From NCBI RefSeq assembly GCF_963506605.1, contig NC_083278.1, positions 9,238,001 through 9,302,000 of the forward strand: DNA of 64,000 nt, given 5' to 3'. The number at the start of each line of letters is the position of its first letter. Within the stretch, counting starts at the first letter, position 1. Positions 25,101 to 31,100 of the stretch are shown here, in pieces. The position numbers are program-made. Source of the stretch: Zootoca vivipara (lineage: Eukaryota).

Positions 25101-28100
25101 GGGCCTGATCCCAACTTTACTTCAGCTTGAGAAAGGGGCAAATTAGATGTGACGGCAGGATACCTGTGCATCAGAACTGGGTTGCGAGATGCCGATTCTC
25201 TCGAAAGGAGGAGGACGGGGAGGGGGATTAGAGCATAGCATGGGGTGGGGTGGGCACAACCCTCCCATCGCCATGTGCCCACTGATGGGATTATAAGACT
25301 GGAAGTAGATTTCCACAGAGATGTACCATTGCAACTTCCCCCAAGCTCATCTAGCTTCCTAGCGAGGAATTGCTCCCAAGGCACTATCTTGTGAGTTTCT
25401 TGCATTCTGCATTTCTAGAACTGTCATTTTTACATTGCCCAGGTTTAATTCTGATAAGAGGAAGTGGCTTCTTTGTAGGCATCTTTCCAACTTCATTTAT
25501 GCAATTCAATCTTTATTATTTTTTAAAAATATACATTTATACAACATTCTCCGTTTTGTGAGGTATACAAAGTATTTTTGCTTCAGTTGCCATCATTTTC
25601 TTTTTTGCTGCCAACTTCATTTATGGCTGAGGTGTCGCCTAACTCTTAACCTGCTGTTGTGTGTATACTACCTCCAGATTATAAACAGAGAGAACCAAAA
25701 ATTTTTACTTTATCTTTTTAAAGAAACTGTGATAAAGATGTGTTAACCGGTTTGGGATGCCTAGCTGTGACGGGTTTGTTTGTTTTTTAAAGAAATGTTC
25801 TGTTGTATTTAGCTTCTCCAAGCAGACCAACTGAAGGGTTAACCCAGTCTCCCTGGTGACTGGCAGCGACATTCCGCTGGAGGAGGGACTGCCAAGGGTT
25901 TAAATATGATGTGCAGCCGTTAAGTTGGCAGTTGAGGGTTTTTTGTGGGGGCGCTTGGGTGGTTGTGGAGAAGGTAGACTGAAGTAGTTGATAGGTATTC
26001 TGTTATTTGATTACCAAGAACGTTACCTGTGAAATTAAGTTTGTGCAAATGATACCAGAAACAACCGTTAAGATTCAAGCCAATAAATATCCATCTTTAA
26101 AGTGTCATACCAGTAATCGTCCATTTCATTTTCCAGCTAAGGTATCCAGGAACCCAGTTGGTGGGGAACTCTTTTAAACTGTCAAAACTGCCTTTTAGAG
26201 GAGAAAGGTTAGTTTGTGGCTGAGAGTGCACCAAGAAAAGGCTAAAGGAGGAGACAGGTTCTGAATGATAATAAAGTTACCTCACAAAGGAGGCTAGCTT
26301 TACAGTAAGGGAGTTTCTAGTGAAGTGAAACCCTTATCTGAGTACACATAGGAACACTTATAGCCCCGAGTCTATATAGTCTATATAGGTACCTGGCCAC
26401 ATTTAGGCTGGAAGAGGACTCTCTTTTATTTTTGAAAACCCACGAGTGCTAGAGGGTTTAAAGAAAGGCTAGAGGGATAAGTGGGAGGTTTGATTTACCT
26501 GTACCTCAGAAATCCCTGTTAGTGCTTTTAATAATTGAGAGGTCAAAGTTATAAGACGGAAAGTAAAGGACTTTCGTCCCACTAGCCAATTGCCATCAAC
26601 CCTGTGTGTCTCCGCGTCACCTGCTGGCTTGCCCCTGCCCCTGAAATTTCTTCAGCAACAGCTCTTTCCCTGCTCTATAAACTTCACCTATTTTCTACTG
26701 TAAGTATTCAAGCAGATTCTTTTCCTAGAAGATTCAAGATGGGTGGTACTCCTGGTACTCAGCTATACAGCTGCAAATATAAGGTTTAAGTTTGTTTTAA
26801 GTGCATTATACAAATCTGTCACCAGATGACGATGGTGAGCTTATGGCAAATTCAATACATTTTCCAAAAATATATACAGATTGAGGGCCACGTGTGGCCC
26901 CTGGGCTACCCACATGCAATGTTAAACCTGAAGCACACTGGCCGTTTCACCACAGCATTTACCTGGAAATGAGTCACCCTGACTGACTTAGGCTCTGGCA
27001 TTTATCCTTAGGATTGCAACTATCAAAAATACCAGCAAGCAGCCAACAGGTCATGCCACACTAATTTCATGCCCATTAGTATTTTACTGGAACGTTGAAA
27101 TCCCATGCATGAAATACAGCTCTTCGTGGGATCATAAAAATTCATATTCCAAGTAAGAGTAAGTAAATCAGCTCACTGACAAGCCATTCTAGGACAAGAG
27201 GACAGCACAACGAAGCCCATTATGTTAAATCCATTTAGCAGCTGTGATGGTAGTGCCATCAGGCAAAGGGTTATGGGAATGGGGGGGGGGGAGAGATGCA
27301 TAAAGCAAAGTTAGAAGGGAATATACAACAGATGAGCTTAGAGAGACGAAGGCAGCCTTAATTCTTCTAGGGGTAGCTGACAAGAACAGATGGGGGTCTG
27401 ACGGGAACTCTACATTACACAAGAGGGATGGGCTTTTTCCTCTTAAAAACGTATCAATTCTAGCTGGCTGGCAACTCAGGGAAATATGGCAAGAGGGGCG
27501 GCTTCAGTGTGGGCAGACTTGGCCCTGCCTCTGAACTGGAAGGCACTGAAGAAATGAAAGAGCACCCCAAGAGCAGTAAATAGGATACTCCACTTCCAGA
27601 GCTCAGCTCCATGCTTGTGAATCATTTCCAAGTTCTTTTATTTCCTCCAGCCTCTGAACAATTGAATGACCCAGAGTTCCTAAATTCACTCGAGGGAAGT
27701 GCGGTCAGATCCCAGGAATTTAGGGACAGCTAACTTACAGAATAGTTACTTAAAGACCAACTAAGTTTTTATTTTGGTATGAGCTTTCGTGTGCATGCAC
27801 ACTTCTTCAGATACAGTGAAATGGAAGTTTCCAGGCACTTATGTAGAGAAGGGGTGGGGAGGGGTGGGGATGGGGAGGGGGGATCACTCAGAAGGGTGGT
27901 GGAAATGGGTGATTGACTGACTGATAGCTGTTGATGACCGCAAACGACTGCAAATGGTTTTGCATGAAAAAGCAAGGGTTGAGATGGCTGAAGATCGCTT
28001 ATCATGTGTAATGAGATAAAAATCCGATATCTCTGTTCAAACCAGGTCCCTCCATGGTTTTGAGCTTGGTGATAAGTTGCAATTCAGCAACTTCTCTTTC

Positions 28101-31100
28101 CAGTCTATTTCTGAAATACAAAAGAATTTCAGAAATAGACTGGAAAGAGAAGTTGCTGAATTGCAACTTATCACCAAGCTCAAAACCATGGAGGGACCTG
28201 GTTTGAACAGAGATATCGGATTTTTATCTCATTACACATGATAAGCGATCTTCAGCCATCTCAACCCTTGCTTTTTCATGCAAAACCATTTGCAGTCGTT
28301 TGCGGTCATCAACAGCTATCAGTCAGTCAATCACCCATTTCCACCACCCTTCTGAGTGATCCCCCCTCCCCATCCCCACCCCTCCCCACCCCTTCTCTAC
28401 ATAAGTGCCTGGAAACTTCCATTTCACTGTATCTGAAGAAGTGTGCATGCACACGAAAGCTCATACCAAAATAAAAACTTAGTTGGTCTTTAAGGTGCTA
28501 CTGAAGGAATTTTTTTTATTTTACTTCGATCCAGACCAACACGGCTACCTACCTGTAACCAGAATAGTTACTATTTGTGTCAAAACACCACCTTTTTCCC
28601 CCGGCTGGCTGTAAACTATTTTTTCTTTGCTGACTCTGCTGTTGCTGTTTTTGTTCCGTTTTAGTATCTGGATTGAAATGTGACGTTTTAACATCATTAC
28701 TGTTGTGTTTATGCTTTATATATGACATTTGTCTTACGAGCTGCTTTGGGATGGATATCATCTTTGTTCCCACATTCCATCTACTTTAGGTAAAGGTAAA
28801 GGGACCCCTGACCATTAGGTCCAGTCGTGACCGACTCTGGGGTTGCGCACTCATCTCGCATTATTGGCCGAGGGAGCCGGCGTATAGCTTCCAGGTCATG
28901 TGGCCAGCATGACAAAGCCGCTTCTGGCAAACCAGAGCAGCACATGTAAACGCCGTTTACCTTCCTGCTGTAGCGGTTCCTATTTATCTACTTGCATTTT
29001 GACGTGCTTTCGAACTGCTAGGTTGGCAGGAGCTGGGACCAAGCAACGGGAGCTCACCCCGTCACAGGGATTCGAACCGCCGACCTTCTGATCAGTAAGC
29101 CCTAGGCTCAGTGGTTTAACCACAGCGCCACCTGGGTCCATCTACTTTAGTACATAGTTATTTGCATTCTACAAGGAGCCTCTGATGTAGATCACAGAAA
29201 AGGCTGTCTTCTACAAAGCCATACCACCAGTCCAACTAATTCAGTTTGTTCTAGCCAGTCAAGTGTTGACTCTCCAGGCTTCCAGAAATTAGCCGTTGCC
29301 AGATCTACCTGGAGAATGAACCTGGGACCTTCTGCAGACAGAACAAGCCCTTTACCAGGCTATGAGATGCCATCCCTCTCCAAAGTACACACAGTGAGAA
29401 ATATTTAAATCCACACATATTTTTAAACTGTGTATACTGCATATTCAGCAGAAAGCCTCTAAGCCAGGCATGTCAAACCTGCGGCCCTCCAGATGTTTTG
29501 GACTACAATTCCCATCTTCCCCAACCACTGGTCCTGCTAGCTAGGGATCATGGGAGTTGTAGGCCAAAACATCTGGAGGGCCGCAGGTTTGACATGCCTG
29601 CCAGTCTAAGCAGTTTACAATCTGAAATATATATACGCCATATTCAGATGATCAATGGCCACCTGCGGGAAGAGGAACCCATTCAGGTTTGAGATGGTGC
29701 ATGAGTTTTAACTCTTAGCAATCCAAAATGTTATTCTCTTACTAAAGGGTTTTAATGTTAAGACGCTCCACATAACTAGATTCAATATGGGAGTGGCGGA
29801 ACCTATTGAATTGAAAATCTGCTGATCCTATCAGGGAAGAGTGGAAAAAGGTAAAGGACCCCTGGACGGTTAAGTCCAGTCAAAGGCGACTTACGGGGTT
29901 GCGGCGCTCATTTTGCTTTCAGGCCAAGGGAGCAAGCGTTTGTCCACAGACAGCTTTCCATGTTATGTGCCCAGCATGACTAAACTGCTTCTGGCACAAC
30001 AGGACACCGAAGCCAGAGCGCAAGGAAATGCTGTTTACCTTCCCGTCACAGTGGTACCAATTTGTCTATTTGCACTGGTGTGCTTTCGAACTGCTAGGTT
30101 GGCAGGAGCTGGGACAGAGCAACGGGAGCTCACCCCATCGTGGGGATTCCAACTGCCGACCTTCCGATTGGCAAGCCCAAGATGCTCGGCGGTTTAGACC
30201 ACAGCGCCACCCGCATCCCTATCAGGGAGAAGTGGAAAAAAGTGATACTGATCTGGATGGTTGATACTGATCTTATTGGCTACCAGATGTAGGTAAATGT
30301 AGGCACCCATGATTTCATGGCTCAAGTTTGCCACGAGCCCTTGGAAAGAAAGCAAATCTAGAACCACACGTGCTGCTACTAACTTTTTGTAGAAAACTGA
30401 ATTATTGGGTAGGTGCTAATCTTCCTAATCTCTATCATTACATTCTTTTCCCTATGTTCTTTTCCTGGCTCTCACTTTTCTTCACATGGAACACTTAGAA
30501 ATAAAAAGTACATTCTGAACACTGATGTACTGTATTGCCAAGAGGGAAATTGCATGGCCATTTATGCAGCTGCATAACTGCATTTCATCCAGGGTCCTGT
30601 GGCTGTACAACGTGCTGTGCTCTTTGTCCCCCTTTCCCTTTCCCCCTTGCAAGCCTGGGTAGTTCTAGTTGTCTTGCACGCCTTTGCAAAACGGTGGCTG
30701 CGCTTTCCTCCCCTCTTGTTGCCTCCCGATTTTTACTACATCGTTGAGTCTGAAGCCCCCCAAGGCACATCATCCACAGCTAACTCGCACTCTCCGGCTG
30801 GCTTGAAGAATGGAGTGGTTTAGACATGCATTTCAAGAGGAAGGATAAACTGGCTTTGCAGAAAGTAGCAGAGGGACATACTAGATCAGCCCAGAAGCAT
30901 AAATTTGGCAACATTCTAGGTGTGGACTATAAAATGCATCCTGCCCTTAGATTTTTTTACAGAAAATCTAAGGAGTCTGAAGCTGCAGAAGGAGAAACTG
31001 AAGATAGGCAGTCTTACCTGAATATATGATTTATTTGGTACTCTCCAGCATCTTTTGTCCCATGGTCTTGAGGTTTCCTAACAAGGCCTTTCACCTTTTG

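What the first reader, a model, noticed from the sequence alone, without database searches (positions are those of the whole stretch)
27738..28572. Young fold-back Penelope element: 369-bp palindrome with a hammerhead ribozyme on each strand
Seen: 27749-28117 is, as far as I can read it, the exact reverse complement of 28126-28494 around an 8-nt loop (acaaaaga); the ORF track gives identical 78-aa ORFs on opposite strands. An unpaired 3' tail of about 65 nt follows, and a 13-bp direct repeat (cagaatagttact) bounds the element. The GIY-YIG reading frame on + runs through the loop (IQK-NFRNRLERE...). Known: Penelope-like elements can have inverted pLTRs, and pLTRs carry minimal hammerheads. Inference: the left arm was copied from the right by cDNA fold-back during a single recent insertion. 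The unit has no RT but keeps pLTRs, ribozymes and tail, so it could be a non-autonomous palindromic retroelement or a source of long dsRNA, endo-siRNA or cruciform DNA between two convergent genes.
Basis: partly seen in the sequence, partly recalled or inferred. Interest (0 to 1): 0.75.

Follow-up and report, generated by a model that had tools for sequence, protein, structure and literature searches.

The report
Truncated Penelope retroelement with inverted arm
This is a recent, dead-on-arrival copy of a Penelope-like retrotransposon whose front half is a mirror image of its back half, an architecture already described as typical for this class of mobile DNA, so it is a clean example and not a new kind of element.

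Summary
Arms 27749-28117 and 28126-28494 are 369 nt and 100% complementary around the 8-nt spacer. A 65-nt one-sided tail (28495-28559) and a 13-bp direct repeat bound the unit.

The right arm encodes the last 41 residues of an RT plus GIY-YIG Penelope-type ORF, at 88% identity to P0001. The spacer is native coding sequence.

A minimal hammerhead motif of the published Penelope type lies on each strand. My descriptor hit 4 places in the window and 0 in 200 simulations. No Rfam hammerhead model matches, and cleavage is untested.

A second insertion of another subfamily (7914-8523) and an unrelated database ORF (P0002) also have an inverted arm, each with a different junction. The inversion therefore arises anew at each insertion. 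It is not a mobilised palindromic family.

The literature already lists an inverted 5'-truncated copy, a one-sided tail, a target-site duplication (TSD) and hammerheads in pseudo-LTRs (pLTRs) as standard Penelope features, and has proposed self-priming.

Most likely mechanism: one target-primed insertion in which the first cDNA snapped back on itself. The rival is priming from both nicked strands.

Any dsRNA or siRNA role is untested. Interest is low to moderate.

The parts
27738..27750 (.). Left copy of the 13-bp target-site duplication CAGAATAGTTACT. Its last 2 nt (CT) are shared with the start of the inverted arm.
   Evidence: (D5)
27749..28117 (-). Inverted arm. It is a reverse-complement copy of element positions 28126-28494 and lacks the tail.
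   Evidence: (I1, 369 nt, 100%)
27777..27814 (-). Minimal hammerhead motif on the minus strand. The predicted cleavage site is between 27781 and 27780.
   Evidence: descriptor hit. No Rfam hammerhead match.
28002..28117 (-). Mirror copy of the GIY-YIG C-terminal coding remnant on the minus strand (FRNRLERE...HYT plus stop).
   Evidence: tblastn, P0002 residues 50-86 to 28115-28005
28118..28125 (+). 8-nt spacer acaaaaga. It is native element sequence: together with the preceding AT it encodes I-Q-K, matching IQR/LQR in homologues.
28126..28494 (+). Direct arm: the 5'-truncated 3' part of the element (end of ORF, 3' UTR/pLTR part, hammerhead).
28116..28241 (+). Coding remnant for the last 41 residues of the RT/GIY-YIG ORF plus the stop codon (28239-28241).
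   Evidence: 88% identity to P0001 and P0002; P0001 = RVT_1 + GIY-YIG
28429..28466 (+). Minimal hammerhead motif. Helix I is GUAU/AUAC, the core is CUGAAGA, and there is an extra A. Helix II is 5 bp starting G10.1-C11.1, followed by GAAA and then AGCU-C. The predicted cleavage site is between 28462 and 28463.
   Evidence: It is 66 of 67 nt identical to the other subfamily copy. Its MFE fold shows helices I and II, but the energy is no better than shuffles. No Rfam match.
28495..28559 (+). One-sided 65-nt 'tail', AC-rich at its end. An 8-bp stem (28482-28489 with 28533-28540) brackets the proximal end.
   Evidence: The tail concept comes from PMC8557442, PMC3846280 and PMC11167929.
28560..28572 (.). 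Right copy of the 13-bp target-site duplication. Its first 5 nt (CAGAA) resemble the tail end (TAGAA) of the second copy, so they may have served as priming microhomology.
   Evidence: (D5)
7914..8523 (+). Second, independent insertion of another subfamily.
- 12-bp TSD TTGTGAAAAAGG at 7914-7925 and 8512-8523.
- Inverted arm 7926-8250, including 16 nt of tail.
- Direct arm 8248-8511 with a 69-nt tail.
- Min-HHRs at 7969-8006 (minus) and 8377-8414 (plus).

Best explanation
The unit 27751-28559 is one recent, 5'-truncated, non-autonomous (dead-on-arrival) insertion of an endonuclease-containing Penelope-like retroelement. It has the head-to-head inverted form that is typical of this class.

Shown:
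- The direct arm carries the last 41 codons of an RT/GIY-YIG ORF, the 3' untranslated/pLTR part with a minimal hammerhead motif, and a 65-nt tail.
- The inverted arm is an exact copy of the same interval without the tail.
- A 13-bp target-site duplication encloses both arms, so the whole structure entered in a single event.

Inferred mechanism:
1. The GIY-YIG nuclease nicked the target with a 13-bp stagger.
2. The bottom-strand 3' end primed reverse transcription at the distal start site. The cDNA ran to about position 28116 of the template.
3. Its 3' end then snapped back on itself through a 1-2 nt (AT) match, leaving an 8-nt loop.
4. The enzyme copied the cDNA back to the proximal start site, which is the tail boundary. 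There the new strand was joined to the upstream target end through a 2-nt (CT) overlap.

The hammerhead motifs are inherited cargo. Each transcript would hold only one sense copy of a ribozyme type that needs a dimer or the element's protein. In a read-through RNA the motif would also be buried in a 369-bp duplex. No activity or host function is expected from this copy.

The confidence given (0.88) is for the class-typical single insertion. For the snap-back step alone I put about 0.5.
For: Structure:
- The palindrome is exact and the TSD is 13 bp.
- The immediate flanks are unique in the window.

Identity:
- The 42-aa frame is 88% identical over 98% of its length to the C-terminus of P0001 (585 aa). 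P0001 scores RVT_1 3.6e-12 and GIY-YIG 2.9e-05 in Pfam.
- tblastn places P0002 residues 46-86 on 28116-28238.
- The min-HHR descriptor gave 4 hits in the window, all in the four Penelope arms, and 0 in 200 simulations.
- The hammerhead-to-proximal-end segment is 66 of 67 nt identical between the two subfamily copies, against 168 of 230 aligned upstream positions. This indicates constraint in the source elements.

Recurrence with different junctions:
- The second copy at 7914-8523 has a 12-bp TSD, an inverted arm and a tail-bearing direct arm.
- P0002 is a chimeric ORF. Residues 1-21/25 match the antisense of the hammerhead region and residues 46-86 match the GIY-YIG end.

Snap-back signature in the unmodified young copy:
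- The arms end at the same base.
- The spacer is native sequence contiguous with the direct arm.

Literature:
- An A. vaga element with an inverted pLTR, a 31-bp tail and a 9-bp TSD, plus the proposal of self-priming from palindromes at inverted junctions (PMC3846280, passages and Discussion read).
- Dual min-HHRs 100-700 bp apart on opposite strands, and min-HHR families in turtle and snakes (PMC4209133, parts 1-2 read).
- The tail equals the sequence between two internal RT start sites in an AC-rich stem-loop (PMC11167929, main text read).
Against: - No Rfam hammerhead model matches at E<=10 or at gathering score.
- The HHR helices show no covariation, because the two subfamilies are identical there. 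The fold energy is no better than shuffles (z = -0.26).
- Pfam does not recognise the 42-aa remnant itself.
- The tail is 65-70 nt, about twice the published 30-40 bp.
- Snap-back alone does not explain why copying stopped at the tail boundary.
- Snap-back cannot by itself give the second copy. There the inverted arm runs about 124 nt further inward than the direct arm, while the direct arm has about 53 nt more tail. That copy needs either two cDNAs or a later central deletion.
- The Anolis enzyme was shown to nick and extend both strands (PMC11167929), which favours the rival mechanism.
- No reads, other genomes or expression data could be examined.
Confidence: 0.88

Rival explanations
1. The insertion is the same, but the two arms are two separate cDNAs. 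The element's dimeric protein nicked both strands. The bottom strand primed at the distal RT start site (arm with tail) and the top strand primed at the proximal start site (arm without tail). One cDNA end then switched template onto the other through 1-2 nt of microhomology.
For: - The Anolis Poseidon protein cleaves and extends both top and bottom strands. It starts reverse transcription at two adjacent internal sites, and the spacing between them equals the tail (PMC11167929, main text read).
- Here the outer end of the inverted arm falls exactly at the tail boundary. In the second copy it falls 16 nt into the tail.
- The second copy has arms of unequal reach, and the direct arm carries tail sequence that the inverted arm lacks. 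Two cDNAs explain this directly.
Against: - In the young, unmodified copy the two arms end within 10 nt of each other (28126 against about 28116). That is an unlikely coincidence for two independent truncations. My rough estimate is about 1-2%, unless both ran off a common RNA 5' end.
- The microhomology does not discriminate between the two models.
Confidence: 0.35
2. The palindrome itself is a non-autonomous retroelement family that is copied as a unit by Penelope proteins supplied in trans.
For: - pLTR sequences alone can mobilise foreign inserts in trans in A. vaga (PMC3846280).
- The unit keeps the hammerhead, the pLTR part and the tail.
Against: - The junction string occurs once in the 64-kb window.
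- The other inverted copy in the window and P0002 have different junctions.
- None of the 3 database homologues (P0001-P0003) contains the junction ORF.
- For the Anolis element the template RNA needs sequence about 55 nt beyond the RT start site, which a solo insertion lacks (PMC11167929).
- PLEs are said to need more-than-unit copies to move again (PMC4209133).
- A genome-wide count could not be made here.
Confidence: 0.04
3. The palindrome is an assembly artefact, for example a fold-back chimeric long read, laid over a simple truncated insertion.
For: - PLE tandem and inverted structures are known to trouble assemblies (PMC8557442).
- 100% arm identity is what an artefact would give.
Against: - The palindrome is confined exactly to element sequence.
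- It is asymmetric at its outer ends, with the tail on one side only.
- It sits between a perfect 13-bp TSD inside a 64-kb gap-free window.
- A second inverted copy with slightly diverged arms (3 substitutions, 3 indels) and an independent database ORF (P0002) show that such structures exist in real DNA.
Confidence: 0.03
4. A simple truncated insertion was later turned into a palindrome by a DNA-level event such as a replication template switch or hairpin-capped break repair.
For: Such mechanisms make inverted duplications in many genomes (general knowledge, not tested here).
Against: - The inverted copy would have had to land exactly between the left TSD and the 5' end of the element, and to stop at the tail boundary.
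- The same architecture recurs at 7914-8523 and in P0002, and is class-typical (PMC8557442).
Confidence: 0.03

Closest known systems
Canonical EN+ Penelope-like element insertions with an adjacent inverted 5'-truncated copy and a one-sided tail (scheme in PMC8557442 Fig. 2 legend; Pen2a_Av of Adineta vaga in PMC3846280)
   Same: Head-to-head inverted repeat, tail at one outer end only, short TSD around the whole unit, hammerhead in the pLTR part, and heavy 5' truncation.
   Different: - There is no ORF body and no direct pLTR pair. Only the last 41 codons survive.
- The arms are exactly equal in reach with an 8-nt native loop.
- The tail is 65-70 nt instead of 30-40 bp.
- The TSD is 12-13 bp instead of 8-10 bp.
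PAc, the Poseidon element of Anolis carolinensis characterised in vitro (PMC11167929)
   Same: - Order of parts: hammerhead, then RT start sites in an AC-rich region downstream.
- The tail lies between a proximal and a distal end.
- The distal end is 97 nt after the predicted cut site here, against about 85-92 nt in PAc (my arithmetic from the paper's numbers).
   Different: - In PAc the ORF starts in hammerhead stem II. Here the ATG in stem II is followed by a stop after 11 codons (read).
- Direct sequence comparison was not possible, because the PAc sequence files are PDF/gbk and could not be read.
Minimal hammerhead ribozymes of metazoan PLEs (Cervera and de la Pena 2014, PMC4209133)
   Same: - Core CUGANGA...GAAA.
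[quoted passage not shown]
- A G10.1-C11.1 pair.
- Palindromic 15.2-16.2 (AGCU) with no loop 3.
- Helix I of 4 bp.
- Pairs of motifs on opposite strands a few hundred bp apart.
   Different: - Helix II is 5 bp plus a 4-nt loop, against the 7-8 bp reported for Schistosoma.
- Cleavage is untested.
- Not recognised by Rfam models.
LINE-1 5' inversions by twin priming (recalled from general knowledge, no paper read here)
   Same: An inverted 5' part next to a direct 3' part inside one TSD. Priming from both nicked strands is the proposed cause.
   Different: In twin priming the two parts cover adjacent, largely non-overlapping stretches of the RNA. Here both arms cover the same stretch.

Membership tests
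Penelope-like element (EN+ canonical type), as a truncated copy | Coding homology to a single ORF with RT followed by a C-terminal GIY-YIG endonuclease | tested here: met
   The 42-aa frame is 88% identical to the C-terminus of P0001. P0001 has RVT_1 and GIY-YIG in Pfam. tblastn mapping is. The remnant alone gives no Pfam hit.
Penelope-like element (EN+ canonical type), as a truncated copy | Reverse transcriptase domain present in the copy | tested here: not met
   tblastn of P0001 against the window finds only its last 26-62 residues. No RT part matches at E<=0.1. The copy is 5'-truncated, so it is a fragment and not an autonomous member.
Penelope-like element (EN+ canonical type), as a truncated copy | Hammerhead motif in the terminal repeat (pLTR) part | tested here: met
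   Min-HHR descriptor hits at 28429-28466 (plus) and 27777-27814 (minus). Rfam models do not match.
Penelope-like element (EN+ canonical type), as a truncated copy | Inverted 5'-truncated copy adjacent, one-sided tail, and a TSD around the whole unit | tested here: met
   Feature list from PMC8557442 and PMC3846280. The tail is longer than published (65 against 30-40 nt).
Penelope-like element (EN+ canonical type), as a truncated copy | Placement in a named clade (Penelope/Poseidon, Neptune, Nematis) by RT phylogeny | not tested
   No named reference sequences were on hand, so no tree was built.
Hammerhead ribozyme (minimal, PLE type) | Conserved core: C3 U4 G5 A6 N7 G8 A9, G12 A13 A14, A15.1/U16.1, H17 | tested here: met
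   Every core position is present in all four arms. The only difference between subfamilies is at the free position N7, A against U.
Hammerhead ribozyme (minimal, PLE type) | Min-HHR hallmarks: a nucleotide between 9 and 10.1, a G10.1-C11.1 pair, palindromic 15.2-16.2, and helix I of 4-5 bp | tested here: met
   output (extra = 1, helix II 5 bp, helix I 4 bp). Hallmarks as listed in PMC4209133.
Hammerhead ribozyme (minimal, PLE type) | Covariation supporting helices I and II | tested here: inconclusive
   The helices are identical in all four arms, so there are no informative changes.
Hammerhead ribozyme (minimal, PLE type) | Match to a curated covariance model | tested here: not met
   No hammerhead family is listed at E<=10 or at gathering score. 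My inference is that the curated models expect a helix III that min-HHRs lack.
Hammerhead ribozyme (minimal, PLE type) | Self-cleavage | not testable with these tools
   Published min-HHRs cleave poorly and only as dimers or with the element's protein (PMC4209133; PMC11167929).
Mobilised palindromic non-autonomous retroelement family | Several copies sharing the same internal junction but with different TSDs | tested here: not met
   The junction occurs once in the window. The second copy and P0002 have different junctions. None of the 3 homologues carries it. The whole genome could not be searched.
LINE-type twin-priming inversion | Inverted and direct parts derive from adjacent, non-overlapping template stretches | tested here: not met
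   Both arms cover the same 369 nt.

The most novel reading that the evidence does not exclude
The locus is transcribed, for example by read-through from the catenin alpha-1 gene that ends 6.8 kb upstream on the minus strand, or from pLTR promoters. The transcript forms a perfect 369-bp hairpin RNA that is processed into small RNAs against this Penelope family. On this reading, the element's own habit of making inverted insertions would create its silencers, much as inverted transposon copies do in plants. A pristine copy like this one would also be a direct snapshot of the integration intermediate, and so could settle how inverted pLTRs form.
Probability: 0.07. Interest if true: 0.55.

Novelty: new member of a known kind. 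Interest (0 to 1): 0.22.

Why it matters
- The copy is unusually clean. It has zero arm differences, an intact TSD, and a native 8-nt loop with 1-2 nt of microhomology. Junctions like this are the raw data needed to decide between self-priming and two-strand priming in Penelope integration, which is still unresolved in the literature read here.
- It also marks a long perfect palindrome in a vertebrate intergenic region. Such sequences can be fragile and hard to assemble, so annotators should expect them wherever Penelope elements are active.
- Beyond that it is an ordinary dead copy of a known transposon class.

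Tried and rejected
- **Rfam.** Four searches found no hammerhead or other credible family: 27000-29300, 28395-28560 and 8335-8512 at E<=10, and the whole window at gathering score. The microRNA-precursor hits on the palindrome centre all fall below their gathering scores. 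They are what any perfect hairpin gives, so I rejected them.
- **Pfam on the short ORFs.** There were 0 hits. The identical 104/78-aa ORFs are out-of-frame readings of the 3' UTR, with no homologue evidence.
- **Fold energies.** The hammerhead and tail segments fold no better than shuffles. The 8-bp stem bracketing the proximal end is only a lead.
- **Uneven arm divergence in the second copy.** An apparent excess of arm differences outside its hammerhead vanished after a proper gapped alignment: 3 substitutions and 3 slippage indels. I dropped the idea that its arms came from two different source RNAs.
- **Comparison with the characterised Anolis element.** This failed. The only readable supplement is a list of read sets. 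The supplement of PMC4209133 is a PDF.
- **Plus-strand ORF 1310-1675.** It gave no Pfam or PDB hit and only ARM/HEAT/TPR-like leads in the Atlas. My recollection that it resembles the usual convergent neighbour of catenin alpha-1 stays unverified.
- **Tandem repeats.** None at the locus.
- **Not available.** The bacterial/archaeal collection was not used because it cannot hold this element.

Full report
**1. Observation**

- The arms 27749-28117 and 28126-28494 are 369 nt and 100% complementary, with the 8-nt spacer acaaaaga between them (pair I1; exact string test).
- The complementarity stops at the arm ends.
- A 13-bp direct repeat, CAGAATAGTTACT, lies at 27738-27750 and 28560-28572 (D5).
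- Between the right arm and the right repeat lie 65 unpaired bases (28495-28559).
- Identical 104-aa stop-to-stop frames lie on the two strands. By my count from that output, the part from the first Met is 78 aa.
- Folded as one RNA, the unit is a single 369-bp hairpin of -753 kcal/mol (z = -57 against 20 shuffles).
- The window has no N.

I take the window as non-human. It carries young Penelope copies with minimal hammerheads, and Cervera and de la Pena found no such family in mammals (PMC4209133, parts 1-2 read). From the repeat content I would guess a squamate reptile. That guess rests on recall and I did not pursue it.

**2. What the sequence is**

The frame through the spacer reads EIQKNFRNRLEREVAELQLITKLKTMEGPGLNRDIGFLSHYT followed by two stops.

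- **Pfam on the remnant.** It does not recognise this short piece (0 hits for 3 ORFs).
- **Protein search, longer proteins.** This returned 2 hits from 9 candidates.
  - P0001 (585 aa) is 88% identical over 98% of the query. Pfam finds RVT_1 (3.6e-12) and GIY-YIG (2.9e-05) in it, and it ends in the same C-terminal sequence.
  - P0002 (86 aa) is the second hit.
- **Protein search, similar lengths.** A search with the 73-aa junction ORF returned 2 hits from 2 candidates, P0002 again and P0003 (56 aa). Neither contains the junction.
- **tblastn.** Homology starts at window base 28116, two bases before the spacer. The spacer is therefore native element sequence, read I-Q-K here against IQR or LQR in the homologues.
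- **RT.** No RT-coding sequence of this family is anywhere in the window.

The unit is therefore a heavily 5'-truncated copy. It keeps 41 codons of the endonuclease end, about 190 nt of untranslated sequence, the hammerhead region and the tail.

**3. The hammerhead**

Rfam gives no hammerhead family at E<=10 on 2.3 kb, on a 166-nt slice or on the 178-nt slice of the second copy. It gives nothing at gathering score on the whole window. The microRNA-like hits are below their thresholds and simply reflect the perfect hairpin.

I then wrote a descriptor from the features that define the minimal hammerheads of Penelope elements:
- core CUGANGA;
- an optional extra base before helix II;
- helix II opening with G10.1-C11.1;
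- GAAA;
- a self-complementary 15.2-16.2 pair with no loop 3;
- U16.1 and a non-G at position 17;
- helix I of at least 4 bp.

It hit exactly 4 places in the 64-kb window: the two arms here (plus 28429-28466, minus 27777-27814) and the two arms of a second copy. It hit 0 places in 200 simulated sequences.

The segment from the hammerhead to the proximal end is 66 of 67 nt identical between the two subfamily copies. The single change is at the free core position 7. Upstream, only 168 of 230 aligned positions are identical. That speaks for constraint in the source elements.

What is missing is covariation (the helices never vary), a favourable fold energy (z = -0.26) and any cleavage test. Published min-HHRs are inactive as single motifs and weak as dimers. 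The Anolis one needs the element's protein and is dispensable for insertion in vitro.

Each strand here would give one sense motif facing its own antisense copy, so I expect no activity from this locus.

**4. A second copy, and what it shows**

A BLAST of the element against the window found a related insertion at 7914-8523.
- Its 12-bp TSD is TTGTGAAAAAGG (D6).
- Its inverted arm is 7926-8250, and includes the first 16 nt of the tail.
- Its direct arm is 8248-8511, and carries a 69-nt tail.
- Its arms differ by 3 substitutions and 3 slippage-type indels over about 200 aligned bases.
- It is 74-86% identical to the young copy, so it belongs to another subfamily.
- Its inverted arm reaches about 124 nt further inward than its direct arm, and the junction has a 3-nt overlap.

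P0002 is a third case. Its first 21-25 residues match the antisense of the hammerhead region and residues 46-86 match the endonuclease end. It was therefore predicted across another inverted junction at yet another position.

That makes three insertions with three different junctions. The junction string of the young copy occurs once in the window. The inversion is therefore made anew at each insertion and is not inherited from a palindromic master.

**5. Comparison with the literature**

- **Craig et al.** PLE insertions are highly 5'-truncated and 'often' have an inverted 5'-truncated copy immediately adjacent. They have a 30-40 bp tail, often at one end only, and HHRs in the pLTRs (PMC8557442, passages read).
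- **Arkhipova et al.** They describe an A. vaga element with an inverted pLTR, a 31-bp tail on one inverted pLTR and a 9-bp TSD. They infer a 'propensity for self-priming' from palindromes at inverted junctions (PMC3846280, passages and Discussion read).
- **Cervera and de la Pena.** They saw pairs of min-HHRs 100-700 bp apart on opposite strands.
- **Frangieh et al.** The Anolis Poseidon protein nicks and extends both strands. It starts reverse transcription at two adjacent internal sites in an AC-rich stem-loop, and the tail is the sequence between those sites (PMC11167929, main text read).

The present unit matches this architecture point for point. The differences are matters of degree: a tail of 65-70 nt, a TSD of 12-13 bp, and no ORF body. 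A search for 'Penelope-like' with 'palindrom' listed 36 papers. I saw the listing of the top 12 only, and none looked to be about such copies beyond the two already read.

**6. Mechanism**

Both outer ends are cDNA-sense relative to the nicked target strands. The whole unit lies inside one TSD, so it is one integration event.

*Snap-back (my preference for the young copy).* The first cDNA, primed on the bottom strand at the distal site, reached about 28116. It folded back on a 1-2 nt AT match, left the 8-nt native loop, and was copied back to the tail boundary. This explains three things at once:
- the exactly equal reach of the arms;
- the loop being contiguous with the direct arm;
- the microhomology at the junction.

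*Two separate cDNAs (the rival).* One cDNA is primed from each strand. This has direct biochemical support in Anolis. It explains why the inverted arm begins at (young copy) or near (16 nt into, second copy) the proximal start site. It also explains the unequal arms of the second copy.

The young copy would then need two independent truncations within 10 nt of each other, which I estimate at the per-cent level. The second copy could alternatively be a once-symmetric palindrome that later lost its centre. Long perfect palindromes are known to be unstable; that is recalled, not checked.

I put about 0.5 on snap-back for this copy and 0.35 on two-strand priming. The shared conclusion, a class-typical single insertion, I put at about 0.88.

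*Two smaller points.*
- The 5 bases CAGAA at the start of the right TSD resemble TAGAA at the tail end of the second copy. The nicked target end may therefore have paired with the template at the distal start site.
- An 8-bp stem (28482-28489 with 28533-28540) brackets the proximal end in both copies. Its energy is not better than chance.

**7. Age and fate**

With zero differences in 369 bp, and assumed rates of 0.5-2 x 10^-9 per site per year, the 95% upper bound on age is about 2-8 million years. Arm-to-arm conversion could make the copy look younger than it is.

The copy has no RT. By analogy with the Anolis element, whose template needs about 55 nt beyond the RT start site, it should not be able to move again.

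It lies about 6.8 kb downstream of the stop codon of a minus-strand catenin alpha-1 orthologue.
- The last coding exon, 35372-35656, matches residues 812-906 of 906.
- Three more exons fall in Pfam Vinculin.
- The exons were searched one by one and never joined.

Whether the locus is transcribed, edited or diced is unknown.

**8. Verdict**

The element identity and the single recent insertion are supported. Fold-back is plausible but not proven, and it is not new. The idea of a mobile palindromic family is not supported, and functional roles are untested.

The finding is a new member of a known kind, with low to moderate interest. Its main value is as a pristine junction for working out Penelope integration.

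Noticed in passing
window 7914-8523: Second Penelope-type insertion of another subfamily, also with an inverted arm, a one-sided tail and a 12-bp TSD. Its arms are unequal: the inverted arm reaches about 124 nt further inward.
   Followed up: yes
window 28427-28494 against 8375-8442: The hammerhead-to-proximal-end segment is 66 of 67 nt identical between two subfamilies that are only about 73% identical upstream. This suggests strong constraint on the segment in source elements.
   Followed up: partly
window 28790-29140, and 3611-3953, 8953-9168, 12384-12736, 29847-30211, 32033-32382, 48212-48557, 49079-49424, 55752-56118: A SINE-like interspersed repeat of about 350 bp. There are 8 further copies in the window at 75-97% identity to the copy just right of the Penelope unit. 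Some copies look very young.
   Followed up: no
window 35372-58389, minus strand: 3' exons of a catenin alpha-1 orthologue. The last coding exon, 35372-35656, matches residues 812-906 of 906. Exons were searched singly.
   Followed up: partly
window 1310-1675, plus strand: A 122-aa open frame with helical-repeat-like (ARM/HEAT/TPR) leads in the Atlas only, and no Pfam or PDB hit. It may be the terminal exon of the convergent neighbour gene.
   Followed up: partly
window 18904-19709 and 16063-16689, plus strand: Open frames that look like LINE remnants. There is a weak RVT_1 match below cutoff at 18904-19443. Several frames elsewhere contain long Asn runs from AAT-type microsatellites.
   Followed up: no
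protein P0002 (database hit, not in the window): A predicted 86-aa protein that is really a read-through across another inverted Penelope junction: antisense of the hammerhead region fused to the endonuclease C-terminus. It shows how such junctions create spurious ORFs in protein databases.
   Followed up: partly
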